Positions 5,601-43,302 of a stretch of DNA of 64,000 nucleotides are shown here, one piece after another. The translations under genes were made by a program, and so were the position numbers. The notes beneath the pieces are model-generated. The model ran no database searches. It had not been told where the DNA came from and was given only the letters and a program-made list of their open reading frames with translations. Origin of the DNA: Saccostrea echinata (lineage: Eukaryota). Each line of letters starts with the position of its first letter. The stretch's first letter is position 1. The stretch covers positions 5,704,001-5,768,000 of the forward strand of contig NW_026889778.1 of the NCBI RefSeq assembly GCF_033153115.1. Reading direction: 5' to 3'.

Positions 5601-8600
5601 GAATTGTCCACCATTATCAAAGTTTGCATAAAATTTGAAAAAAGTGCCAAATATTGAATTTGCAGATTCAACTTCACTTTTCTTTGTTTGCATGATAATT
5701 CGTGAAAATTAGATTTTTCTGTATGACTGGCACTTCTTATTTACCTATCTGTGCTCTCTATTATTTGTGAAATAGAAAAGTGCATTTCAAAAATTTCTTT
5801 ATTAAAAACAGGAAGCAGATCTGAGAAACAATGGTTTCGTGTCAGCGATCAGAGAAGAAAGTCCGAGTGTGTCCTGAACACGCTTCCACGCCCGGATAAA
5901 TATCTTCTGGAATTTGACATAAAAACCAGAAAAGTGTTGAAAGAGCTGTTTAACCTTTTGAGGGTTAGTAATACATATATCTTCTGATCACTTCAGAAGA
6001 GGAAGATGATATTGAAAATCATGTTTTATTTACTAAAAGTTTATTTCTTAATAATTTTGAGAGATTGTCTTGACATGAAAATAAAATTCTACTGAATATT
6101 AACAGAGAACTTACTCATTACTGAACAGTTGGAAATAAATATACATGTATTGTGAATAAATAAATGCTACTGTCTTCTGAAAGTAAGGTTACTCAAAATA
6201 AAATGAACATGTCATAAGAGGGATGTATTTGTTAAAATCATATCTTATAAATAAATATAATGTTTAACTCTCATATTATGAAAACATTGTTCCTGTAGAT
6301 TAAATGTAATGATTTACAAAATGTACTCTTTCTACATTATGGGGGAGGGTAACTAGGGGTAAGAAAATAATCCTGTTATAAATGTATCTCTGGTTAGAAG
6401 CTGTCTTGTTTATACCTTTGTGTATTGCAGCATCCATACATATTTCCTATGATAGAGTTTGACTTTGTGATCGATCAGAATTTTGTGGTTATTATTCAGC
6501 CTGTTTGTAACAAAGGATCACTCAAGGATGTCATATATCAGGTAATGTCTTTAAAGTTTAATATCTAAAAACATCTTGAAGTTCTTAAATACAGTTGAGC
6601 TTTGATATCTGGAACTCCAATATCTCAAAGACCATGGATATGTTGAAGTGATTTGAAAGTCCCAACACTATTTCCTTATTGTATTTTAAAGTCAATATCT
6701 CAAATCTTCTGATATCTCAAAGTCAATATCTCAAATCTTCTGATATCTCAAAGTCAATATCTCAAATCTTCTTATATCTTAAAGTCAATATCTCAAATCT
6801 TCTGATGTCTCAAAGTTTTTTTCTTTGTCCCTTTGAGTTTGAGATAGCAAAGTTTGACTGTAATTTGAAGGGAAAGTCTTGTACAGCTAATTAAAATATT
6901 AGAACTATGAATTGTTTTATTTCCTGACAGAATCAAATGTCTTTTTTTTTTATAGAAAAAAATTTAATAAAAAAGGTTTTAAATGTTTCTTTATTCAGTG
7001 AGTGATTTAGGAAACACTTGAATAAACAGAGCTTTTCCTTCAGAACTCAACTTAGAGTGAGCTGTCTTTGTCAGCCTGTTAGGTGTCTGTGTAGTATATC
7101 TAGAGTACACTGTTCTATTATTTCTTTTTACAGAGTCGTTACTACACATCCTGGCATGATAAATACAAAGTACGAAGTCGCGGTCTAGGTATACAACAGG
7201 TAGCAGTGTACGGAAAACAAATTTTACAGGTAGATCCACTAATGGAAGGTTATATAACATTAACATCTTCATTATTCATCATAGTAAAGTACCGTATATA
7301 CTCGCCTATAAGTCGGATTTTTGGGAGTTAAACTTTGGTCCAAAACTCTATGTCCGACTTATAGGCGAGTTATGAAAAGATTGGTATCTTAGAAGGACAA
7401 TCCCTCTAAAATAAGCTTCAAAAATACAACCGACTTATAGGCGGACCAACTTATAGGCGAGTATATATGGTATTGAGTTCTATCTCCAGGGAAGCCCCCC
7501 TCTCTCTCTTCCTCTCTCTCTCTTTCTCTCTTTCTTTCAATCTCTCCCTCTCTCAATAGGTATTATTTATCAGTAATTTACCTTTATCCTAATACAGGGT
7601 CTATTATACATGGAAGAGAAGGAGTTACCTCCCCATGGGCATCTTCACAATGGAAACATTATGTTTGATAATGGGGTCTGCAGGTAGAATAACTCTAAAG
7701 ATATGTATGTCTTAATCAGAAAACATTTGATAATCAGCAGGTGGACTGCATAACTTCTATTTTCTCTGTATTTTGACAGAATAACAGGGTATGAGAACAG
7801 TTTCCTTGGTTTGAAGTCCAAACTTTCCATAATGGCAAGGAAGAAACTAAAGGAACAACCAGAGGCGATTGATGTCCTTTCCTTTGGTAATACTTAGTCT
7901 AAATTATGTAGACTATATCAAATAAAATACACATTCACTGTAAAATTAGTACATACATTTACAGGTTGATAAGGAATCCAATAATCTCAAACTATTTTCT
8001 TTTATTTAAATGTCCTTATTGTGTGTTACCTTTATAGTTCTCAAGGGGCAACTCAATTTTATGGTATGATATTTTGTATGATTTTACAGGTCATGTGTTT
8101 TACGAGATGTGTACAGGGTCAGAGCTTGACTCCGCCCACCCAGAGCCTCGACATCTCAGTGTCATCAACAACGCAGAAATTGTATCGGTAAGGTGTAACA
8201 TTTAGCTTGATTTATTTCTATGCCGCAGACAATCTGGCATCAATTCCAGGCAATTGACTGCCTGTATATCAAAACTCACACTTAACTTTTCACACAGTAA
8301 TAAAACTTTGCGAGATTTATTTCATGTTCAAACTTCAATATATTGATAAGGATTTGATTCAGCATTTTGTGTGGTGGATCAAAGGATGTTGATGTGTGTA
8401 GATTTGACCCTTTATGAAGAATTATTTATATATTTTGTTTAAAGATATTTGTCAGGTGTCCTCAATTTATAGTTGTGGGAATTTTTGTATATGTTAAGTT
8501 TCAATCCTTAAAGTAGAATGCTTTATCCACGTGTAGGCCTATAGGTCTCTCCATTAATTTTTTTCCATCTTAATAATGACGTCGACATTCACCCCAAGCT

Positions 8601-11600
8601 AGTGGCAGGCAGTAATTATTTACAGTAAACCATAGAAAATAAACCAAAACATAAAGTACCCAAGCTTATTGTGTGGAAAGTTGTTTTTCTTTTATTTATT
8701 TGTTTTTTTTCTTTCTTTTGGCTATGAAGTATAAGATATGGAATCTTTCTTGTGTCAGACATTAAAATAACTTAACAGTTATTTATTGATAATTCATCAT
8801 CCAAATATAAAAATTAAGAAAAACTCATAATATATCTATATTATACTTCTTATGATTAGTTGTAATTACAAGCCTAGAAAGATATCATTTATATTTTAAA
8901 TCTTTTAATTCTATAATTTATTATTTTGTTTAATAATTAATATTCTTTGAACTCTTAACAAATGTTTAAAAAAAACTTTTCATGAATAGGAATTGATCTA
9001 AGAAAACATTTTTTAAAAATGATTTAAACTCTTATTTAATACATATACTATGTTCTAAAAATTTCATTTTTTTTCAATTTATTAAGTAAATGTTCTGCTA
9101 TCAAATCTTTATTATTAATTGTTGATCAAATTCTCACTTTGAAAATTCAACACATTGAAATAATTATCTATATTTTATCAATAATTACCATCATTGGTCA
9201 GCATCTCACTTTTAGAGGTGGTCTGTTACCTATTATTGGTCAATTATTATAAATCATCATGATCTTTTTTCTTTGATCTGTTATCTTTTGTGTATTAATT
9301 ATGACCCATCACAGACTAGCTTATCACTTTGATCCTAACAGCACAAGGACACCTCACCAAGCATCCCCTTAATGACCCAAGCTAATTGACCTGCTTAATA
9401 AAAGGGAGGTGTTAAGACTCTAAATAAACCAATCAGTAATCAGTTTTGGATTCATTAACCAATCATAGAAAAGGATATATACTTTCAGCCAATGAAAATT
9501 TAATTAAGCAGTCCAAGCTGATTTCTAGCAGAATTTGGGGGTACAAATAAGCCTGCAGAATTCAGTGTTGACAATTCACCATTGTGATCCAATCTAAGCT
9601 ATCATAGTGCTAATAAGTGAGATTGCAATCTGATAAATTTAATCAATTGTGCTTTGTGCATCAGTTGAATTAATCCCAGTGTGGTATTATCCTCAGCTTG
9701 TTGTGTGTTATATAGTGAAAAAGTTAATGTTTTAGTATTGTTTTGTGAAGTGTTTCAGTGTTGTGTAGTGCTTCAGTGTTGTGTAGTGTTTCAGTGTTGT
9801 GTAGTGCTTCATTGTTGTGTAGTGCTTCAGTGTTGTGCAGTGCATTCAGTGTGTCATCATGGCTGCTCGTGCATCTTCCCCAGTCATCGAGATCAACTTC
9901 GCCACCACCCTAGAAGACGTCATCAAGGCCACCATCTTTGACGATGCCCCGCCTTCACCGCAGCCTTCCAGCACCTCCATCCAGACCACCCTCAACACCA
10001 GTGCAGCTGAGACCAGATTTGATGAGTGCCTGAATTCCCTCATCAGTGATCATCCCACACCAGAGAAATCCGCAGACAACGACCTCCAGCTAGCTCTACA
10101 GTGTCTCCATCCTTCAGCACCAGAGAAGATCTGTGACGACAACACCATCTCCTCTACGGAAATCTTCAGTGCCCTCCAGACCATCTTCCGCTATGAAGCC
10201 AAGTCATCCACACCATCAGTGCTCATCAAGTCTGTTCAACCAGAGCTGTCTACTTCCCAACGTGAACAACAGCTTCTTCAGAGATTCAACGTCCTTCATC
10301 ACCATCACCCTCAGCAGATCAACGACTTGTCATCATTCTTCAAGTACCAGAGTGCCCAAGTGGAGACAGACCGCTACTGTGCCCTTCATCAGAACTCCAA
10401 CCAGCCACATCACATCAGAGAAAGCATCAACCAACACTACAACATCACCCACCATCGCATCATGGACCGTGTGGAGAACAGCCTACAGATCCTGGAGGAG
10501 AATCTACCCCAGCCATCACCCATCAACACCAAAACTACCACCACACAGACCAACAGCCAGATCAACAACCTCCGCACCAGACCGTCGCTATCCCAGAAGT
10601 CTGTTCAGCTGATGGAGAAGTGGTTCTACAGTCATCTAGAGCATCCCTACCCATCGTCCGACATCATCGAGGAGCTGGCCAGGAGAGGAGGGATCAAGGA
10701 GGAGCAGGTCAAGAAGTGGTTCTCCAACAAGAGGAACAGGAGCCGGAGGTCATCAGGGGTCAACAAGAGGAAGGTGTCCAGTGTCAACAAGAGTGTGCCA
10801 TGCTTCTGGTGATTGTGTTGTAGAAGATTGGTTGTGTCAAAAATAGTGGGTGTAATTCTGATGATTGTGTTCTAGAAGATTGGTTGTGTCTAAAACGGTG
10901 GGTCTCCATTCTGGTGATTGTGTTTGTGCATCAGTGAAATTCTCCAAGGGAAAAAGGTGAAGAAGTGGTGGTGAGTATTTAGTGCTCAGTGTTGTGTGAA
11001 GTTCTGTATATAATTGATATGTAGTGCTTTATATAGATTTAGTGCTGTGAACTATAAGTGCTATCATGTTTATTTTAATATTGTTTGAGTTTCATTTATA
11101 CAGTGCTTCTAATTTTATTTATGAATGTTTGAATGTTGTAGAATATATGAATAAATAAAAGATCTAATGAAAAGAGGGTTTTTGTCTTCTTTGTCATGAT
11201 TAAGAAAGGAAAGAATACACTGTATACATAATATTTTGGTGGTGTATTCTATTTAGCACTTTTGGCAGAAAGCAGCTTCTGCTAAATCAAGTACATTGCT
11301 CATAGTCTTGTATACTATATTATATATCATACTAATAAGATTAGTCATATAAAAGAAGTATCCTCAAATACTTCATCTAGTGGAATTACCTGATAACCCT
11401 TAGAATGGACTAGCCAAAGGGTATGTAAGGCAAAGCTATGGGAAAGTAAGGCATTCAGAATCTAACCAAAGAAGTTGAGTGATGAATCAGCAATAAAGAT
11501 CAATAAAATTGAATCCATAACATATGTGTAGGGGATTGAATACACGTATATTTAGACATAATTCCCATTTATTAGTATTAGTATATAAGGATGGGATGTT

Positions 11601-20600: not shown

Positions 20601-23525
20601 AAAAGAAAAAAGGTGAAGAAAGGAAAGGTGCAATTAGTGCTTAGTGAGGATCCAGTGCTCAGTGTTGTGTGAATTTAAGTTGTGTATATAAGTTGATATA
20701 TAGTGCTTTATATAGATTGGTGGCTTTGATTGAAATACATGTATAAGTGCTATGATGTTTATTTTTACTTTATTTCTCTGTTTCTCTGATATAGTGCTTC
20801 TAATTTATTTATTAATGTTTGATTGTTTTTAAGTATTTGAATAAAAAAAATAATTTATGAAAAAAAAGGTTTTTGTCGTCTTTGTTTTGTCATAATTGAG
20901 TAAGGAAGGATACACTGTATACATATCATATTTGGCGGTGTACTCTATTTAGCACTTTTGGCAGAAAGCAGCTTCCCCTAAATAAAGTACAGGACTAAAT
21001 GTCTTTTATGAGTGTATATATATTTACATCCACTGAATATCATCAGCTCCTTTATTTCTTATGAAAACCATTGCTGGTAATCTGTCAGTACCGGTAAATG
21101 CTGTTTAGCAAATCACTTACAGAGATTTCTGAAGCAGCGGCTATTCCATCTGCATCAATGAAACATACAAGCTCATGCATATCAATAATAAAATATTCAA
21201 CCAAGTTTTTTATACAGATAATATACCAATCGTTGGTTGTTAGTATGGGAATTAATGCATTTTATTGTTTAAATTCATATTTAAATTAGCATGTCCAGAA
21301 GGAGCTGATCAAATCTTCACTAACTTGTTGGAAATCAATTTCCGCTAAGTATACAGTATTAAAAGGAATTACCTGTATCTTTTGTTAACCAATAAATTGA
21401 GCCAGCCCTTGAGATGAGTACCTATATATATGTTTTCTTTGATGATCTTATGAAAGCAAATATTTTTATATTTCAGGTGCTGAATTTTATCTTTGGAGTG
21501 GACACAGGGGGCAGATACCCTTCATTGAAAATGGTAATCCGACTAAGGCAACATTTTATGCACATTATATTCTATTGCTTTTGTCCAATGTTTTGTAGAG
21601 CATTTTTAAAATAATATATTTCATTAAATAGTATTCAAAAATGAATTAGATGATAGAAAAAAAGATATATGACATTTAAAGGGAGAATGTTAAAAATTGA
21701 TTAAATAAAAAATTGTCAGACTCTTTTTGCACTTAATTGATTTATTCAGGGTTATTATGAAAAATTAAAATGTTTTGTGTATCAATTATAACCAATCACA
21801 CACGAGTTCTCTGACTTTGATCTGTTATGTTTTGTGTATTAATTATAACCAATCACACACAAGCTCTATCACTTTGATCTTTTATGTTTTGTGTAGATAT
21901 TGGAGCTGAGCTTCTTCAAAGCAGTGAAGTTAATGGAGATAGATAAATTTAATCCTGCAAAGGTTTGTATATCTTATTTTTTTCAAAATTCTGATGTATT
22001 CATTTAATTAAGTTAAATTCAAAGTTCAAAGATTTTAGAATGTACGTGTTAATAAATACTTTAACTATTTTAATTAGCAGTAAGTCAAGGTATTGAAAAA
22101 AAAAATACTACAGACTGAGTTTTAAGGTTTCATTTTGTGAACATCTTCCACCTTATACAGTGTATTTTTGTAGATTCATTTATCTAAAGAAATGAAGAAA
22201 GCAATCAAAGCTGTCAGCTCTGGAAAGAAGATGTGAGTAACCTGATATAGAAATCACTGTACCTTTTTGTCTATCCATCAAAGCTTTTTTATATTATAAT
22301 GCAGCTATAATTATCTTGAGATGTTTAGAAGATGATACCCTCTAAATGTTGAGCTTTCTCAATCAAATGCACATACAGTAAAACATGGTTATAGCAAACA
22401 TGCTTATAATGAATTTTAGTGTAGTGATTTTCATTCCTTGTAGTTTTTAAACCTGTTGTGAACTGAATGGATATGAACTGAATGGTGAACTGAATGGATA
22501 TAATGGATATGTACATTTATAATGAAGCAAACTCGTTGGTCCCTGTCACTTTGCTATAAGCATGTTTTACTCTCTAGTTAAACTTCAAGACTGCTGAGAG
22601 AAAAAAAAAAGATATTAAGAAATAAAAACAAGCATTCTGAGAGTATTGCATTAGCAATACTAGTCCCCTACCGGTAAGTGTAATCTGGTTCCCATCAAAA
22701 TTTAAAATGTTGTAATTCCGTCAAAAAAATCATTGAAGCGGAACGTAGCATAAACTTAATTTGTAACTCATCAAGATACACTTACATACCAAAAATCAGC
22801 TCAATATCCGCAAGCGTTTAGACAAAAAGTGTGGAAAACCCTTGAAAATTAAAGGGCCGTAATTCCCTCAAAAATCAATGAAGCGGAACGAAATTCAAAC
22901 TTGATCTGTAACTTATCAATATACACTCACATACCAAAAATCAGCTCAATATCTGTAAGCGTTTAGAAAAAAAGTGCGGAAAACCAAGTGGGACAGACTG
23001 ACAGACAGACGGACAGACAGACGGACGGACAGACTCCGAGGAAACCTATAGTCCCCTCCGGTTTCACCGGTAGGGGACTAATAATGGATATTTGCAAGAT
23101 TTTTTGCTTTGTGAATATATGAACATGCTTTTTTTTTAACTTGTTCATGCAAATCTTTTTGTGACAATGCTGTAATATTATCCCTTTCAATTCACAGAAA
23201 GAAATTGAAGAGGACAACCTCCTCAGTCAGAATGGAGAGAACAGATTCCAAAACCATGCTTCACAGTGGAGGATCTAGACCTCCCTCACCCCCTCCCCCT
23301 GGTGGCCCCCCTGTGGGGGTCCCTCCACCACCACCCCCACCTCCTCCACCCACCAGCCCTGGAGGACCACCACCACCTCCCCCTCCTCAAGCCCCGGTAC
23401 CTCCACCACCACCCCCAGCATCATCAGGAGGGTCAGCTGGGAGGGCTGCCTTGCTCGGTGATATAAGGTCGGGGACTAAGCTAAAGAAAACTGTAACTAA
23501 TGACAGAAGTGCCCCGAAGTTGTGA
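2612..23525 (+). CDS. Slowpoke-binding protein / PXK-like pseudokinase with N-terminal TM helix, polyproline tract and WH2 domain (14 coding exons)
   Basis: In-frame GT-AG exons: 2612-2650, 4150-4220, 4740-4834, 5420-5497, 5812-5963, 6431-6541, 7134-7229, 7598-7683, 7780-7886, 8090-8187, 21477-21533, 21897-21962, 22174-22232, 23198-23525. Motifs HPYIFP, KGSLKDVIY, YGKQILQGLLYM, HGHLHNGNI, IDVLSFGHVFYEMCTG and C-terminal GRAALLGDIRSGTKLKKTVTNDRSAPKL (WH2) are typical of PXK/Slob. Confidence 0.88.
2965..4088. mobile_element. Non-autonomous TTAA-TSD DNA transposon (Kolobok-like)
   Basis: TTAA|GGTAGTATGGGATACC ... GGTATCCCATACCACC|TTAA. Confidence 0.75.
6592..6860. mobile_element. Tc1/mariner-pogo type MITE with internal ~31-bp tandem repeat
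   Basis: TA|CAGTTGAGC...GTTTGACTG|TA; internal repeats of TCTCAAAGTCAATATCTCAAATCTTCTGA. Confidence 0.65.
7292..7470. mobile_element. pogo/mariner-type MITE
   Basis: TA|CCGTATATACTCGCCTATAAGT ... ACTTATAGGCGAGTATATATGG|TA. Confidence 0.75.
9180..9600 (+). promoter_or_regulatory. Promoter of homeobox copy 1 (TCF/LEF-type sites, CCAAT x3, TATA-like element)
   Basis: CTTTGATC at 9271 and 9327; CCAAT at 9429, 9459, 9489; TACAAATA at 9542. The block is highly conserved in copy 2. Confidence 0.65.
9859..10812 (+). CDS. Intronless TALE-class homeobox protein (spiralian TALE/SPILE-like), copy 1, nested in pseudokinase intron 10
   Basis: 317-aa ORF from ATG 9859. Homeodomain RTRPSLSQKSVQLMEKWFYSHLEHPYPSSDIIEELARRGGIKEEQVKKWFSNKRNRSRR has the TALE PYP loop and WFxNxR. 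AATAAA at ~11151. Confidence 0.92.
   Translation: MAARASSPVIEINFATTLEDVIKATIFDDAPPSPQPSSTSIQTTLNTSAAETRFDECLNSLISDHPTPEKSADNDLQLALQCLHPSAPEKICDDNTISSTEIFSALQTIFRYEAKSSTPSVLIKSVQPELSTSQREQQLLQRFNVLHHHHPQQINDLSSFFKYQSAQVETDRYCALHQNSNQPHHIRESINQHYNITHHRIMDRVENSLQILEENLPQPSPINTKTTTTQTNSQINNLRTRPSLSQKSVQLMEKWFYSHLEHPYPSSDIIEELARRGGIKEEQVKKWFSNKRNRSRRSSGVNKRKVSSVNKSVPCFW
12436..13833. mobile_element. Non-autonomous element with ~140-bp terminal hairpin (Helitron-like), hosting an RTE fragment
   Basis: Imperfect palindrome 12440-12580 (TACAATATTCACCT...AGGTGAATATTGTA); absent from duplication unit 1. Confidence 0.5.
13048..13615 (-). mobile_element. 5'-truncated RTE-clade LINE (3' end of RT ORF, frameshifted)
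   Basis: ORFs ...NSNVKSILLYGTETW... and WGWIGHTLRKP...ALTWNPQGKRKRGRPRNTWRR; (TAAG)n tail at 13048-13060. Confidence 0.85.
13927..15320 (+). mobile_element. Helentron-associated element (HINE) carrying ~7 copies of a ~167-bp satellite (Cg170-like)
   Basis: 5' TTAGGTCACCTGAGT, 3' ACTCGGGTGACCT plus short hairpin. Unit landmark GAATTTCATGGCC recurs at ~14229, 14398, 14565, 14732, 14897, 15052, 15220. Confidence 0.8.
16507..16810 (+). mobile_element. tRNA-derived SINE inserted in the LINE RT
   Basis: A/B box head, (CAAT)n tail, 14-bp TSD TCGACAYGGTATGG (16493-16506 / 16811-16824). Second copy at 47103. Confidence 0.88.
17711..17916. mobile_element. TA-flanked MITE inside the LINE
   Basis: TA|CTGCAAATGTAC ... 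GTACGTTCACAG|TA. Confidence 0.55.
18968..19400 (+). promoter_or_regulatory. Promoter of homeobox copy 2
   Basis: CTTTGATC at 19068 and 19124; CCAAT at 19226, 19256, 19286; TACAAATA at ~19339. Confidence 0.65.
19620..20570 (+). CDS. Intronless TALE-class homeobox protein (SPILE-like), copy 2, nested in the same intron
   Basis: 316-aa ORF, near-identical paralogue of 9859-10812, with HPYP and WFSNKR intact. AATAAA at ~20840. Confidence 0.92.
   Translation: MASCASSPVIEINFATTLEDVIKATIFDDAPPSPQPSSTSVQTTLNTSAAEARFDECLDSLISDHPTPEKSADNDLQLALQCLHPSTPEKICDDNTISSTEIFSALQTIFRYEAKSSTPSVLIKSVQPEMSTSQREQQLLQRFNNLHHHHPQQINDLSSFFKYQSAQVETDRYCALHQNSNQPHHIRESINQHYNITHHRIMDRVENSLQILEENLPQPSPINTTTTTTQPDSQISNFRTRPSLSQKSVQLMEKWFYSHREHPYPSSDVIEELARKGGIKEEQVKKWFSNKRNRSRRSSGVNKRKVSSVNKSVPCF
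20915..21357. mobile_element. MITE downstream of homeobox copy 2 (truncated remnant at 11219-11290 after copy 1)
   Basis: CTGTATAC...GGCGG / CCGC...GTATACAG termini; the same left end is present in unit 1. Confidence 0.5.
22628..23081. mobile_element. HINE-type element with (GACA/GACG)n microsatellite
   Basis: TAGTCCCCTACCGGT subterminal repeat, terminal hairpin TAGTCCCCTCCGGTTTCACCGGTAGGGGACTA, internal tandem duplication. Confidence 0.7.
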
Positions 23526-25844: not shown

Positions 25845-28800
25845 TTATAAATTGTCAACGCTAGCCAGTCCGTGATAAGTAAAGCCACGCCCACTTCTGA
25901 TCTGAGACACCAGGCATGCGCTGACGGCACTCCTTCCGTAGTTCAGAGGATACAGTCTCCTCCAAGCCTTTTTAGTGGGGTCATACTCCTCTGCGTTTGG
26001 GGATGTTGTGGAACCTAAGATTTAAATACAACAATTTCATATTTGTGTATTTTTTGTTGCAAAATCTAAAGCAAAGCATGTTAAATGCAACAGAGACAAA
26101 GAGAAATCATTTCTTGTTTGTCTAGCTAGCACCAGCAGCCTCGAAGTGAGGCTGAAAGTTTTACTCTTCTCATAACCAATCACTGCACAAATGTATAAAT
26201 AATACTCATGTAATTTTGATGTTAATATATATTTTTTCTTTTTTAATTTCTCTTACAAAATACATGACATACATTTAATATCCAAAATGGTTAATAGTCC
26301 TTTTGATAAGTTTATGCCTAAAACGAAATGGCCCTCGATCTTTTTTTTTCTTTGATGCCCAGTATGAATAAATGTAAAAGATTCACGTAATCACTAAAAT
26401 TTAAAAATTCAGGCCTATACTTGGCATGTCAGCGTAATCTGACCAGTGTACGTCATTATATATATCATGTCTTACCGCCACGCTCATTACGTCTCTGGTA
26501 GCCGACAACTTACCGTCATATCCTCCGATAACCACTATTTTCCCATTCATTACCACGGCTGCAAAGTTACTGCGACCCTGTATCATAGAACCCATGGGGA
26601 ACCAAGAGCGAGTTGCCCAACTGTATCGCTCAACTGGTGAAAGTAAAATGTATTATCATTATTTATATTTCTTATGTTGAAAAAAATTCCTACAAATGTT
26701 AGTAAAATGCAATTTGCAGATTTACATCTGTTTTCAAATCTATACTGGACTACAAAAATGTTTTTGCCTGTGTGCCATGCTCGCAGTAAATGATGCCGTT
26801 TCAGAAAATCTTGTACAATTTAGGTACCTGTCGAAAGTCGGTCACTCCCATTGTATCCCCCCAGTGCAATGAGTTCTTTCTGCAATGCCACCAAAACCAC
26901 GCCACTTCTGCGTGACGTCATATCTGGCAGCATTGTCCATTGGTTTACAGTGGGGTCGTAATACTCGGCAGAATCCAAACACGACGCGCCGTCAAAGCCG
27001 CCAGCAATGTAAATCTTACCTGAAATGTAGTAGAACTGATTGCAAGGAAATATTTTTAAAAGAGCAGGGAGTAGCATTGAAAAATAAATACTGATAATAT
27101 TAATAAATGTTGCAACGTTGATGAACCAAAATCACAAACTGAACACTTTAATTTTTTTAAGTCGAATTTTGTTTTTCCATCCAAAAATTTTACAGAATTC
27201 TAATGGGTGACATGATCTGCTAATACTCGATCAAGGGAAAGGGATGAAAAGAGAATGGCGAAATGCCTGCCTATAATTCATGTCCATCACACAAACTAAA
27301 AACGCATGCAAATTAATCTTCAATGTGCATCTTTTTTTCCAATCAAATGAACTAAAATCAAGAATTAAGAGGGATGGTCAGAATAAAAAGTTATGAAACG
27401 CAACACGACCCATGCATAACTCTAGCCAAAAAGCTTTTGCAAGATCGGTGACGCTGCATCTAGGTCTTAGTAAATAATTTCTGCTAGCCTCCCCTACTTT
27501 CCAAACATAATAACCATGCAAGGCATAGAGGACGATAGCTAAAATTTGACGTTGTCACCTTGCTCATGCCAAATTAAGCAATTTAGTTTAGTTTTCAGGT
27601 ATATAACAATAACTTTAACCATCAAGAGCCGTAGCCCCGGCGTCGCTGCGTTTCCTCCACATCGGCTGTACGTGGGTCCACTGGTTCTTTATTGGGTTGT
27701 ATTTCTCTACAGAGTCTTGTCGATTCCGTCCGTCAAAACCACCACAGGCATATATTATACCTACAAAGTTGCAATACTTTTTTTTTACAAAAACATCTCT
27801 TCTCCGAGTTTCGACTTCGACGTATAAATTGATTTTATTATATAATATAATTTCTTTTTGGATTAATAATTTCTATAGCCTTGTTATTGTACAATATTAT
27901 ACTTTCATGTAAATTAGTTGAATCTAATTCATCGAGAAACATTTGTTAAAAAACACTATTACCCGCTGAATGATGAAGCCACGCCCTCCACCGTAGCAAC
28001 AGTCAACATTGCTTGACGACGGGTGATATTCCAAAAAATAGTGACTGCGCAGAATTTATGCGCGCACGGTTCAATGTATTTGTATAAAACATTCAGTATA
28101 ATATAATTAATATTGCATGTAGTTGAGTGTAACATAGAAAATTTTCAAATTTTCTTGGGGTGAAAATTTTCAATGTTACACTCAGCTACATGCAATATTT
28201 ATATCTTACAGTACCTACGCCCAGCGTATTGTACCATTTAATTCAACAGCACTGACGTAACATCTCATGATATACATCGGAGCTCTCTCTTCCCAAGTCT
28301 TCTCGTCAGGGGAGAAGCAGTAGACACTGTTGAGATACTGGGTCCCGTCAAATCCCCCTACAATGAAAATCCGTCCGTTCATAAACACCGTGCCGTGATA
28401 GGCGCGCGAGCACGGCATACATTGCTTGGTAACGTACCATCTGTCAACGTTCTTGTCGTAGGCTTCAATTGAGTCCACAACCCCAGTGCTGGACCAGCCC
28501 CCCACTGTGAAGATTATTTCGGGGGGTACTCGGGGTCGCAGTAAGATATTATCGTCGTCCACGATAAAGGGGCTCTCGTAGAAGATCCTCATTAGGTTAG
28601 ACACCCGATTGATGAGTTTCTTGCAATCTCTTAGATTTACAAGCGTTTTGTTTCTTTGAATTTTGGTTTGGAAGAAATCGACATTAACGAAGCAAAATCG
28701 CATTGATTTTAGAAGCTCTGGATATTTGTCTCTTCTGTCTCTTTGTTCGTAATCGATCCATCTTTGAATTGCCAGAAATACTTCGCTTTCGTTACACACA

Positions 28801-29360
28801 GAAAGGTCGTCGTCATTTAATATCTCTTTCAAGTCGTCGACATGCAACTGTAAATACTCTTGACTCTTTTCAACAATATCTTTGAAATTTCGCACGATGT
28901 ATTCCCAAGCTTTTCGCGAAAGATGTTGACAATTATAGAAGCGAGAAAATTTGAATATTCCTATGCAATTCTCAGGAGATATCTGTTCATAAAGGTAGTT
29001 GGTACATTCTTTTAAAAGTCCAAAAACATGAAATCTATCAGACGCTGCTAAAAGATCTTCTACGTTATCTGGGGTTATAATAGCCTTCCTAATATAGGCA
29101 TACTGGATGATTTGGTTCATAATATTTGCCGACACACCATAAATGGAAATTTCATTTTGTTCCGATTCCTTTAGTCCGGACGTGAACAGTGATCTGAAAT
29201 AATGACTGCAACTTGCCATGACGTTTCTATGCACAGGCAAACGGGTGTTTTCATCCGGAATCTTAATGTATGCGTCACAAAATATCCCTTGCAAGCGCAT
29301 TTCGTGAAGTTGGGTCTGGGGATCCATGTCATAAACACTACAAACTTGTAAATCAGTCAT
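25845..29360 (-). CDS. Kelch-like protein (BTB-BACK-Kelch), KLHL10-like
   Basis: Exons 29360-28235, 27760-27620, 27019-26828, 26633-26514, 26014-25845 join in frame. BTB (FCDA...HRNVMASCSHYFRSLF), BACK, LLRPRVP...IIFTVGGWS and six GG-containing kelch repeats; ends ...GRSAVSACLV...ASVDNL*. Confidence 0.9.
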
Positions 29361-36831: not shown

Positions 36832-39800
36832 CTAGTCCTCATCATCAATTACAATAGCCTCCTCTGGCTTATTGCTGACTAACTTTAGGGGAGCTATAGC
36901 TATAGAAGGTCGCTGAAGGACGTTTGGTTTGGCAGGAGTGTTGGTAGTAGGTTTTGATTCTATTTGGACAGTCTCAAGAACCCCTGAAAATTGTTCCAGA
37001 ATGGGGTTTCGCATCACTTTCTTATCCAGAATGGATTTCATTGTTGGTACACTTTGACTGTTTGAGATTCGTAATGCTGAAGGGATACCCACTTGACCAA
37101 AACTAATGTTACGACTAGCTTGGGAAGACGGCTGTGGTTTTTGTGGCAGTTCTCTCATTGTGGTGGCTGCGGGAGGAGTAGGGTGGAGTTGCCGCTTTAC
37201 GGCATCTTGCTGAACCGCAGACGGGGAATCGTACTTAATTCCCATATAAGTAATCACACCTGTTCGTGGTTTTAATTGATTGTTTTTCATTATGGGACTG
37301 TTGCGGCCCACAAGGTTTTCACTGGACATTGATGTTGGTTTTAGGATACCTGTTCGAGATTGTGGAGTGCCCGGTTTGACTGTACGATTCATCTGAGGTG
37401 GACACTTCCTGGGTGACTCAGTCAGTTTTGACTGATCTGTTTCGTCGTCCGAGGAGTCAGACAACTCAATAATCTGAATGTCTTCATCCTCTTGGACAAC
37501 TTTCCTATATGGACTAAAACTCTGTTTCCTCTTTCTCTCCTGGGTTTTCTTTGGAACATAAATAACTTTCATGGTTTCAGTGCCGTCTGGATTAGTTACA
37601 ACCTTGGTGATCATATCATAATGCTGCATTGACTGACTTGTGCGAATTCTGTTAATATTTTCGTTGATCTGTTTAATTCTAGCACTCTTAGGCCCAAACA
37701 GTGGTTTACTGAGAATCTGTCGGAGATGGGAATCTACTTTTGTGGCAGTCTGGTTGTTCATTGAGTATCGAGGCACAAATACTGGCTTTGTTACCGGTTT
37801 TGTTATTGGTTTTGGCTTGGGTCGGCACCATTCTTTAATAATCTCTGGTTTCAGTCGTTGGAGTTTTACCGAACAGTCTTTGAGATGACACAGTAAATCT
37901 CGGCTTCGTTTGGTCAGGCCAGTTTTCTTTGTGATCATAAACTCTCTGCGCTGTTCAGAATTAAACTTGAATGTGTGCGTGTGTTTCGTGGAGAACTTTT
38001 TGCGTTTTTTGTACACAATTGGATAAGTCCTTTCGGAACGAAGTTTCTCCATGAACTGATTCTTGTCAGGTCCACCACAAAACTTTTCGTATTCTTTGAC
38101 CACAGGAATGGTTGAGTCAATCTTTAAGTGTTTTTTCACTCTATGTCCCAGAGCAGATGTAATGTCGATGCCAAACAAAAGAGAACTCTTTGAGATCTTC
38201 TTCTCCATCTCCTCTCCGCTCTCAGAATCACTAAACATCCCACTAAAACTGAGACATCGCCTTCTTGAGTGTGCTTCTGAGTCTCGACTGAGTTGAGACA
38301 TGAGTGATTTCGGTGTTCGAGGTGTACGGGGGGCCTCAGGAAATGACACCTCGATTATCTCACAATCGCTATCCACCTCCTTCTTTGGAGAAGCTTCCAA
38401 TGATTTTTCAGCATCTGGTTTTTTCACCAAGTCTAAGAGTCCAATGAACACAGATTTTTCTGGTCGTCTATTTATGTCTAAATATCGAATTCTCCTTCTC
38501 CTTTTGCGATATCTCAAAAAGTTTCTGTTTTCCTGAAATCATAAGGTTAAAAAAAAATTTGCTATCACTCAAAGATTACCAAACATAATATGTGTAACTT
38601 AAGCAATAAACAAATTATTTTACATCCATCAATATGCATATTTTTTTTCAAAAATTCATCTCTTCGCAAATGTCGAAACAAGAAGTCTGTTATGACAGTG
38701 TAGCTCCACTTGATGAATTTAATGGTTTAAGGATATCCGATCCTCAGCCAGGAAGGATAACTCCTCTTAAAATTATTATTTAATTTTAAAAGTCTCAAAA
38801 TAAAGCTTGAAATTGTAATATTTTTGTGCAACAATTTTCATTTCATGTATTTCAGTATGATTCAAGGTTCTTTGAAGTCTTAGAAACGGTCTTGTAAAGA
38901 ATTGACATTTGTACCCCCATGAATTTCAAAGATAATGCATTTTTATAAAAATAGAATTTCCTTTAATCTAGCCTTAGATGCCAATGTTTATTAGCTTGAT
39001 ATGAAATAAGAAGTGATTTGTGATGTCTTACAATGATAATATAATCATTTTACACTATGTATTTTATATCAGTTGCTCTAATTAGAAGAACTAAAGTACT
39101 AAATAAGTATGAAAAACATGCAATCTTCTCCCTATGCCTGGATACCTATAATTTTTAATCACAAAATATATTTGTTGATCAATTTTCTTTCAGAAAATGC
39201 ATAGTGGGTACTTTGATTGGCATTTCCTGAAAATATAGTGTTTGAAATTTAATAATTGTCCCTATATAATATGATTAATGATGAACTTTGAAGAAATACC
39301 TTGGGTAAATACACATTAAGTATTTTGAGAATTCAGAGACCTTTTTGTAAGCATTTTCAATTACTCAACTCTCGATTTTCAGAACCTGAGGATCGGACTA
39401 CCTTAAATTAAGACTTATTCATTTTGAAAAAATCCATGCAATCAAGATATCAATGTTTTGAGATACTGAAGTTCAATTGTATTTATGGTATACAGATATT
39501 CAATCCACAAACATTTTTTTCAGCTCTTCTGTTACTTGGTTTTGGTTTTAATCCACATAATTCAAATTCTTAAAGCAATAGAACCGACGCTGAAAAAAAT
39601 ATACCTTTACTTCAATTTTCAGTAACAGTTCTTGCTGCCTTTGGATTTCCAGAATACGTTGTCGGGCCTCCTGAATTTCAGCCTCTTTTTCACATTCCTC
39701 CTGGTGTTCCATCAGCACTTCCTGGTCTCGAAACTGTTTGGTACACAGGAAACAGATCCAGATGGGGGCATCATTAGCTGGGGATTCCCCCGTCTCAGCC

Positions 39801-42695: not shown

Positions 42696-43190
42696 TATAC
42701 ATCAGTAGTCATCATGTCTACAAATACATAAATCAGTAGTCACATGTCTACAAATACATAAATCAGTAGTCATCATGTCTACAAATACATACATCAATAG
42801 TCATCATGTCTACAAATACATAAATCAGTACTCATCATGTCTGTCTACAAATACATACATCACTAGTCATCATGTATGTCTACAAATACATACATCAGTA
42901 GTCATCATGTTTGTCTACAAATACATACTTCAGTAGTTATCATGTCTGTCTACAAATACATACATCAGTACTCATCATGTCTGTCTACAAATACATCAGT
43001 ACTCATCATGTCTGTCTACAAATACATCAGTACTCAACGTGTCTGTCTACAAATACATACATCAGTACTCATCATGTCTGTCTAGAAATACAAACATCAG
43101 TACTCATCATGTCTGTCTACAAATACATACATCAGTAATCATCGTGTCTGTCTACAAATACATCAGTACTTATCATGTCTGTCTACAAAT
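42696..43190. repeat. Minisatellite, ~30-35-bp unit
   Basis: Roughly 15 copies of ATCAGTACTCATCATGTCTGTCTACAAATACATAC. Confidence 0.9.
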
Positions 43191-43302
43191 TAATACATAA
43201 AATCCTTACTGACCAACAAAGTTGACTTTTCAATACAAGATAATAATAAAAGAACTATGCATGCTGATTCTCGATTCCTGCCTACATTTTACATCCATTT
43301 AA

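What the first reader, a model, noticed from the sequence alone, without database searches (positions are those of the whole stretch)
9180..9570. Promoter architecture conserved in both homeobox copies: paired optimal TCF/LEF sites and three CCAAT boxes at exactly 30-bp spacing
Seen: CTTTGATC at 9271/9327 (19068/19124 in copy 2); CCAAT at 9429, 9459, 9489 and 19226, 19256, 19286; reverse CCAAT at ~9193 and ~9235; TAAT-rich sites; TATA-like TACAAATA. This non-coding block is much better conserved than the DNA just upstream of it. Known: CTTTGATC is the TCF/LEF consensus, and phased CCAAT arrays bind NF-Y in strong cell-cycle-type promoters. Inference: these may be direct beta-catenin/TCF targets at zygotic activation, linking animal-vegetal Wnt asymmetry to spiralian TALE genes.
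Basis: partly seen in the sequence, partly recalled or inferred. Interest (0 to 1): 0.72.

Follow-up and report, generated by a model that had tools for sequence, protein, structure and literature searches.

The report
Oyster embryo homeobox promoter, Wnt-gated candidate
A conserved stretch in front of a mollusc-specific homeobox gene in an oyster carries evenly spaced CCAAT boxes, a TATA variant and TCF-type sites that recur near the closest mussel relative, so it is likely the gene's promoter and may let beta-catenin confine the gene to the embryo's future dorsal cells.

Summary
All motifs are at the stated places. The gene is an intronless PADRE/TALE (SPILE A/C-clade, CgTALE11-13 type) homeobox gene of a rock oyster. 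The block is constrained: 16/391 substitutions between copies against 24/207 synonymous. It survives in a third paralogue (dS about 0.6) and in two related organisms, where the TATA variant reads TATAAATA.

Exact 30-bp spacing is not conserved (30-33, 40-42, 51); helical phase is. Phased CCAAT pairs occur in 8 of 11 SPILE-like upstream regions, 0 of 16 Fox ones and 7 of 224 background windows. So the CCAAT/TATA core is a family trait, not a cell-cycle promoter.

CTTTGATC is not family-wide (0 of 8 other SPILE genes within 1 kb). The closest mussel relative, however, carries four copies (0.17 expected). That mussel gene matches MvSPILE-7, which is D-quadrant specific rather than animal-vegetally tiered. 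No Helper sites flank the TCF sites although oyster TCF has a C-clamp.

Best reading: NF-Y/TATA drives early zygotic transcription; TCF likely gates it by default repression relieved by beta-catenin, possibly in the D quadrant. Binding, start site and Wnt response are untested.

The parts
9180..9620 (+). Constrained upstream block (likely proximal promoter) of homeobox copy 1
   Evidence: 4.1% divergence from copy 2 over 9180-9570; about 70% match in the C8 paralogue; two organism-D contigs align over 9193-9620
9193..9197 (-). Reverse CCAAT box; not kept in the C8 paralogue
9235..9239 (-). Reverse CCAAT box, kept in all three paralogues
9271..9278 (+). TCF-type site 1 (CTTTGATC), inside a 15-bp run identical in all three paralogues
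   Evidence: no difference shared by both organism-D contigs; single-contig differences not excluded
9305..9309 (+). CCCAT; reads CCAAT in paralogue-type contigs of organisms C and D and in the downstream repeat unit (likely decayed further box)
   Evidence: 9307 C>A
9320..9326 (-).
   Evidence: 9317-9334 shows no listed difference in organisms C and D; kept in C8
9327..9334 (+). TCF-type site 2; CTTTCATC in the C8 paralogue
   Evidence: no listed difference in organism C/D gene-type contigs; changed in C8
9368..9387 (+). 20-bp footprint containing CCAAGC, factor unknown
   Evidence: no listed difference; CCAAGC in 6 of 10 independent SPILE upstream regions vs 24 of 275 background windows, not significant after correction for all hexamers
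9429..9433 (+). CCAAT box 1
   Evidence: flank change 9428 A>G keeps the purine
9459..9463 (+). CCAAT box 2
9489..9493 (+). CCAAT box 3, 53 bp before the TATA variant (51 in C8, 53 in the mussel gene)
   Evidence: (loose end)
9542..9549 (+). TATA variant TACAAATA; TATAAATA in organisms C and D
   Evidence: 9544 C>T at full depth in both runs; TACAAATA in all three paralogues
9570..9580 (+). Predicted transcription start region, about 30 bp after the TATA variant; not measured
   Evidence: inference from TATA and CCAAT positions
9859..10812 (+). Intronless 317-aa PADRE + TALE homeodomain gene, SPILE A/C clade, CgTALE11-13 type (copy 1)
18967..19403 (+). Second copy of the block: TCF 19068/19124, CCAAT 19226/19256/19286, TATA variant 19339
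19620..20570 (+). Homeobox copy 2, 316 aa, 95% identical to copy 1
21770..21895 (+). Two tandem 57-bp units derived from the TCF1-TCF2 interval, each with one CCAAT and one CTTTGATC, 1.2 kb downstream of copy 2; no homeobox remnant follows
   Evidence: a similar unit in organism A

Best explanation
The block is a conserved non-coding stretch in front of an intronless SPILE A/C-clade homeobox gene and is likely its proximal promoter, where a helically phased CCAAT array predicted to bind NF-Y and a TATA variant would drive early zygotic transcription while the upstream TCF-type sites likely gate it, TCF repressing by default and beta-catenin lifting the block in a subset of blastomeres, possibly the D quadrant. 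Shown here: the motifs, their constraint, the family-wide phased CCAAT core, the TCF cluster upstream of the mussel relative, a C-clamp in oyster TCF, and no Helper sites. Inferred: real promoter (about 0.9), NF-Y use (about 0.85), TCF binding that matters (about 0.55), beta-catenin-dependent spatial control (about 0.4), D-quadrant output in oyster (about 0.25).
For: Constraint beyond synonymous sites. The block is retained in a paralogue at dS about 0.6 on another contig. In organisms C and D, 38 of about 176 vetted positions vary but 0 of the 18 in TCF2, CCAAT1 and CCAAT2 (hypergeometric p 0.01). Canonical TATAAATA in those organisms. Same-strand CCAAT pairs 28-54 bp apart within 700 bp of the ATG: 8 of 11 own SPILE-like genes (6 of 9 counting the three close paralogues once), 0 of 16 Fox genes, 0 of 4 HMG-box genes, 7 of 224 background windows. 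Spacings cluster at multiples of about 10.3 bp (Rayleigh p about 1e-4). The mussel locus L019 has a CCAAT pair 40 bp apart, the same 53-bp gap to its TATA box, and four reverse CTTTGATC sites at -923 to -784 (0.17 expected, 0 of 200 shuffles); its DNA does not align with the oyster block. CgTALE11-13 are expressed egg to blastula (PMC5322547); A/C-clade SPILE genes start zygotically at 4-16 cells and MvSPILE-7 is D-specific (PMC8524836). HMG sites alone suffice for basal repression, while activation needs Helper sites, in fly and worm (PMC3916239). Oyster TCF has a C-clamp-type segment; no Helper-like motif lies within 30 bp of any of 10 sites checked.
Against: No binding, reporter, start-site or expression data for this gene. 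TCF site 2 is changed to CTTTCATC in the C8 paralogue. No CTTTGATC within 1 kb upstream of 8 other SPILE-like genes, including L005, which the tree places next to this group. The mussel support is one locus; two of its four sites are a 31-bp duplication, the sites lie on the opposite strand and farther from the core, and a repeat origin could not be excluded. One-to-one orthology of the oyster and mussel genes is a reciprocal best hit with a modest margin and is unresolved in two trees (p-AU 0.25). CTTTGATC also occurs upstream of 1 of 16 Fox and 1 of 4 HMG-box genes, and in 11 of 224 background windows, twice or more in 1. The 28-54 bp window and the phase test were chosen after seeing the spacings and include related promoters; control start codons were inferred and two Fox loci are probably not first exons. 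Other footprints are as invariant as the TCF sites. I found no report of nuclear beta-catenin in the bivalve D quadrant.
Confidence: 0.45

Rival explanations
1. An ordinary NF-Y/TATA early promoter whose spatial control comes from other factors (GATA, homeodomain, the CCAAGC-binding factor) or from mRNA segregation and decay; the TCF-type octamers are passengers inside other footprints or do little.
For: Site 2 decayed in C8; 0 of 8 other SPILE genes carry the site within 1 kb; no Helper sites; GATA and CCAAGC footprints are equally invariant; PMC8524836 argues that mRNA degradation shapes SPILE patterns.
Against: Four sites upstream of the mussel relative in non-alignable DNA; site 1 sits in the longest identical run across the three paralogues; the motif was named before the mussel locus was seen.
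Confidence: 0.33
2. One reading: direct beta-catenin/TCF activation that reads animal-vegetal sister-cell asymmetry.
For: Optimal sites in pairs or clusters; beta-catenin is nuclear in vegetal daughters in Platynereis (PMC5069452); limpet SPILE genes are tiered along this axis (PMC8524836).
Against: The matching mussel gene is in D and all its daughters, animal and vegetal. The oyster gene closest to the macromere-specific MvSPILE-6/10 (L004, CgTALE10 type) has no CTTTGATC in 3 kb. No Helper sites.
Confidence: 0.14
3. The similarity is only recent duplication or gene conversion, or a haplotype artefact, and the motifs are chance.
For: The copies are 95% identical in protein; synonymous divergence is very uneven (1.4-23%); the two copies group together in the tree.
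Against: The block survives at dS about 0.6 and in two other organisms with alignment ending at its borders; organism D holds three distinct block-like contigs at similar depth; C. gigas has three such genes; family-wide CCAAT phasing.
Confidence: 0.04
4. A cell-cycle (G2/M, cyclin B2-like) CCAAT/CHR promoter.
For: Three phased CCAAT boxes, as in cyclin B2 (cited in 10.1101/2019.12.27.884890 and PMC1802594).
Against: No CHR hexamer in 9420-9640 or in copy 2, TATA-type element present, no CpG in the block.
Confidence: 0.04

Closest known systems
Multi-CCAAT NF-Y promoters (cyclin B2, cdc25C, thymidine kinase; Mrps12/Sarsm)
   Same: Array of spaced CCAAT boxes with purine-purine flanks close to the start (passages in PMC1802594 and 10.1101/2019.12.27.884890).
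   Different: AT-rich, CpG-free, TATA-containing, no CHR; spacing varies in steps of about 10 bp across the gene family; drives a lineage transcription factor.
TCF Wnt-response elements of invertebrates (end-1, pxb; HMG + Helper sites)
   Same: High-affinity HMG core in pairs or clusters next to general activators; the TCF of this genome has a C-clamp-type segment.
   Different: No Helper sites; only site 1 (partly) fits the S..S flanks of SCTTTGATS; untested.
SPILE A/C clade, CgTALE11-13 (TALE clade VI) and MvSPILE-7
   Same: PADRE domain + TALE homeodomain with QVKK motif, intronless, lineage-specific duplicates.
   Different: No promoter analysis of these genes was found in the library searched.
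siamois/twin (Xenopus) and dharma/bozozok (zebrafish) (recalled, not from a call)
   Same: Lineage-restricted homeobox gene switched on at zygotic activation on the dorsal side through TCF sites.
   Different: Those are PRD-class genes with shown beta-catenin dependence; here the analogy is a hypothesis.

Membership tests
SPILE A/C-clade (PADRE-TALE) gene | TALE homeodomain (PF05920) with QVKK motif | tested here: met
SPILE A/C-clade (PADRE-TALE) gene | PADRE region upstream of the homeodomain; grouping with CgTALE11-13 | tested here: met
   P0004 matches the CgTALE13 row of Fig. S5; oyster clade support 100
One-to-one orthologue of MvSPILE-7 | Reciprocal best hit and a supported clade | tested here: inconclusive
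   Best hits in both directions; L019 matches MvSPILE-7 at 50 of 63 PADRE residues by eye; clade neither recovered nor rejected, p-AU 0.25
NF-Y multi-CCAAT promoter | CCAAT with RR..S flanks, several boxes in helical phase, last box 30-55 bp before TATA | tested here: met
NF-Y multi-CCAAT promoter | NF-Y binding and dependence; mapped start site | not testable with these tools
   needs CUT&RUN/EMSA, reporter, CAGE
Cell-cycle CDE/CHR promoter | CHR element near the start; TATA-less and CpG-rich | tested here: not met
   (CHR hexamers recalled)
Invertebrate Wnt-activated element | High-affinity HMG sites, conserved | tested here: met
   site 2 changed in C8
Invertebrate Wnt-activated element | Helper site near the HMG site | tested here: not met
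   none within 30 bp of 10 sites; consensus from PMC3916239 passages and the PMC4267635 abstract
Invertebrate Wnt-activated element | Response to beta-catenin/TCF perturbation | not testable with these tools
   needs embryos

The most novel reading that the evidence does not exclude
The first zygotic D-quadrant homeobox gene of bivalves is a direct TCF target, kept so in oysters and mussels by independent TCF clusters on a shared NF-Y/TATA core. Polar-lobe inheritance would then specify the dorsal lineage through beta-catenin lifting TCF repression, a spiralian parallel to siamois/dharma. SPILE paralogues would have diversified by adding such gates to one phased-CCAAT promoter chassis.
Probability: 0.25. 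Interest if true: 0.82.

Novelty: new member of a known kind. Interest (0 to 1): 0.55.

Why it matters
How polar-lobe cytoplasm sets the D quadrant is a long-standing open question, and nothing was found on what switches SPILE genes on. A 400-bp block with a family-wide activator core and a clade-specific TCF module gives a direct reporter and drug test of whether beta-catenin is the link. Even without the TCF part, the phased-CCAAT core is a candidate strong early promoter for molluscan embryos and points to NF-Y as an activator at spiralian zygotic activation.

Tried and rejected
Start site and expression: no RNA holder listed. Runs X1 and X4 are guessed RNA, contigs only, at depth 2-5 on the gene; they say nothing on start or expression.

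Genome-wide search for the 30/31-bp CCAAT triad: 285 matches; the 100 listed are nearly all 30-bp minisatellites, so it is uninformative.

Rfam over 8000-23000: 0 matches. No homeobox remnant after the 21770 module. The two TCF sites as one ancient internal duplication: the flanks are not alike by eye; rejected. DECA-CCAAT composite: not seen by eye. L020 (a distant TALE gene from a metagenome contig): no CCAAT pair and no CTTTGATC.

The first tree (39 rows, quick) and the second (20 rows, careful; long, partial and redundant rows left out) did not resolve cross-order orthology. De novo hexamer enrichment: nothing survives correction. Earlier findings of the scan: nothing by place, words or sequence.

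Ten literature searches found no paper on SPILE promoters or on TCF/NF-Y control of SPILE genes; one search was too loose to inform. Subscription papers, including Morino et al. 2017, were not searchable. The FASTA supplements of PMC8524836 could not be read, so MvSPILE sequences are not in the trees.

Full report
OBSERVATION. In 3000 dinucleotide shuffles of 9180-9570, none held two CTTTGATC and 13 held a CCAAT triad at 28-54 bp. The duplicated unit runs from about 9009 to 11327. Inside it the block differs by 16/391 substitutions, against 20/148 just upstream, 35/200 in the 5' leader, 62/416 in the 3' flank and 24/207 synonymous sites (Fisher p 9e-4 or lower). Synonymous divergence is very uneven along the gene (23%, 9%, 1.4% by thirds), which suggests gene conversion, so the two-copy comparison alone is weak and I sought older comparisons.

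THE GENE. 9859-10812 and 19620-20570 are single-exon ORFs of 317 and 316 aa. The best relatives are oyster proteins (72-88%, best in Saccostrea), then mussel and pearl-oyster proteins. The Magallana protein P0004 matches the CgTALE13 row of Fig. S5 in PMC8524836. The gene is therefore a SPILE A/C-clade PADRE-TALE gene of the CgTALE11-13 group. That group is expressed egg to blastula in C. gigas (PMC5322547, passages), and A/C genes start zygotically at 4-16 cells (PMC8524836).

OLDER COMPARISONS. A third paralogue on contig C8 (78% aa, dS about 0.6) keeps the block at about 70-79%. In it TCF site 1 is intact, site 2 is CTTTCATC, the CCAAT spacing is 40/31 and TACAAATA is kept. Two DNA runs of related organisms (coded C and D) hold contigs that align over the block; the two organism-D contigs span 9193-9620 with 54 and 66 differences. 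Position 9544 is T in both organisms, giving TATAAATA, which identifies the element as a TATA variant. On 9262-9500, 40 of 41 difference rows were shown. Positions near contig ends are not listed, so about 9295-9470 is vetted: 38 of 176 places vary, none of the 18 in TCF2, CCAAT1 and CCAAT2 (p 0.01), and 9428 A>G keeps the purine flank. CCAAT3 is intact in the loose end of one contig (spacing 30/31); three other contigs are gapless (30/30). For TCF1 and CCAAT3 only a difference shared by both D contigs is excluded.

CCAAT CORE IS A FAMILY TRAIT. Eleven SPILE-like genes were found in the genome. Same-strand CCAAT pairs 28-54 bp apart lie within 700 bp of the ATG in 8 of 11 (6 of 9 independent), 0 of 16 Fox genes, 0 of 4 HMG-box genes and 7 of 224 background windows. 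Spacings are 30-33, 40-42 and 51-52, in phase with the helix (Rayleigh p about 1e-4); background spacings are scattered. The window and the phase test were chosen after seeing the data and the promoters are related, so these p values are optimistic. A TATA or TACA element follows the last box by 32-53 bp in 7 of 9 regions examined. There is no CHR and no CpG, so the cyclin-B2-type label does not fit.

TCF MODULE IS CLADE-SPECIFIC. CTTTGATC within 1 kb occurs only in the three close paralogues, in 0 of 8 other SPILE-like genes, 1 of 16 Fox genes and 1 of 4 HMG-box genes; the background is 13 in 159.5 kb. A metagenome scan gave two loci. L020 is distant and has no site. L019 is a mussel gene (66% to Mytilus P0008; in the Mytilus clade at 100/99). 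It has four AGATCAAAG sites at -923, -843, -815 and -784 (0.17 expected; 0 of 200 shuffles), a CCAAT pair 40 bp apart and the same 53-bp gap to its TATA box, in DNA that does not align with the oyster block. Two of the four sites are a 31-bp duplication, and this is a single locus. By eye L019 matches MvSPILE-7 at 50 of 63 PADRE residues. Mytilus proteins of this type hit the window's group best among oyster SPILE genes, with a modest margin. The trees leave strict orthology open (p-AU 0.25).

WHAT THAT CHANGES. MvSPILE-7 is expressed in the D blastomere at 4 cells and in all D daughters at 8 and 16 cells, and the authors suspect polar-lobe control (PMC8524836). This does not fit animal-vegetal sister asymmetry of the Platynereis kind (PMC5069452). 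The oyster gene nearest the macromere-specific MvSPILE-6/10 lacks the site in 3 kb. Oyster TCF has a C-clamp-type segment, yet none of 10 sites has a Helper-like motif within 30 bp. In fly and worm, HMG sites alone give basal repression and activation needs Helper sites (PMC3916239). With a strong NF-Y/TATA core next to them, the sites are more simply read as a repressive gate lifted by beta-catenin. I found no report on beta-catenin localisation in cleaving bivalve embryos; in Crepidula the passages seen concern the 4d lineage (PMC3724503).

MECHANISM. Shown: motifs, constraint, family-wide phased CCAAT core, clade-restricted TCF clusters, no Helper sites. Inferred: promoter with a start near 9570-9580 (0.9); NF-Y activation at zygotic onset (0.85; NF-Y acts at vertebrate ZGA, PMC11802806 passages); functional TCF binding (0.55); beta-catenin-dependent restriction (0.4); D-quadrant output in oyster (0.25).

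PAPERS SEEN. PMC8524836: parts 1-4 of 6 of the main text, supplement 1 part 2 plus search passages, supplement 2 part 1; FASTA supplements unreadable. Passages only: PMC5322547, PMC3916239, PMC5069452, PMC11802806, PMC1802594, PMC3724503, PMC11903683, PMC12780502, PMC12550047, PMC12551290, 10.1101/2019.12.27.884890. Listing and abstract start only: PMC4267635. The siamois/dharma comparison and the NF-Y, CHR, GATA and TATA consensus forms are recalled. Ten searches found no study of SPILE promoters; subscription papers were not covered.

VERDICT. A real, constrained promoter of a known kind, not described for this gene family in the library searched. The TCF idea gains independent but single-locus support and points to D-quadrant gating rather than animal-vegetal activation. 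Interest 0.55.

Noticed in passing
window 21770-21895: Two tandem 57-bp units made from the TCF1-TCF2 interval, each with a CCAAT box and a CTTTGATC, 1.2 kb 3' of copy 2; a similar unit is in organism A. Possible derived enhancer or remnant of a lost copy.
   Followed up: partly
window 11235-11300 and about 20930-21000: High-copy element with nested inverted repeats (about 100-fold depth in related DNA runs) at the 3' end of the duplicated unit in both copies; resembles a Helentron/MITE end (recalled) and may mark the duplication border.
   Followed up: partly
window 8495-8833 and 12080-12434: A 340-bp segment upstream of copy 1 recurs downstream of it (79%); a short similar stretch lies upstream of the C8 paralogue (by eye).
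   Followed up: no
window 9859-10812 vs 19620-20570: Synonymous divergence falls from 23% to 1.4% from the 5' to the 3' third while 8 replacements remain in the 3' third: gene conversion, possibly with selection near the homeodomain.
   Followed up: partly
window 9513-9518, 9377-9382; L005, L006, L007, L010, L019 upstream: CCAAGC recurs in 6 of 10 independent SPILE upstream regions (24 of 275 background); in the oyster copies and the mussel gene one copy lies between the last CCAAT and TATA. Factor unknown; not significant after correction.
   Followed up: partly
window 9730-9850: The 5' leader is built of 17-bp GT-rich repeats (TTCAGTGTTGTG core) before the ATG in all three paralogues; possible RNA localisation or decay elements.
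   Followed up: no
L149/L153, G000:C2:7590788-7591132: Oyster TCF has two tandem alternative HMG-box exons and a C-clamp-type segment.
   Followed up: no
window 28215-29360 (-), 36832-38301 (-), 42697-43198, 14125-15239: A BTB-kelch-like ORF, a 489-aa ORF, a 31-35-bp minisatellite and a 168-bp-period repeat array elsewhere in the window.
   Followed up: no
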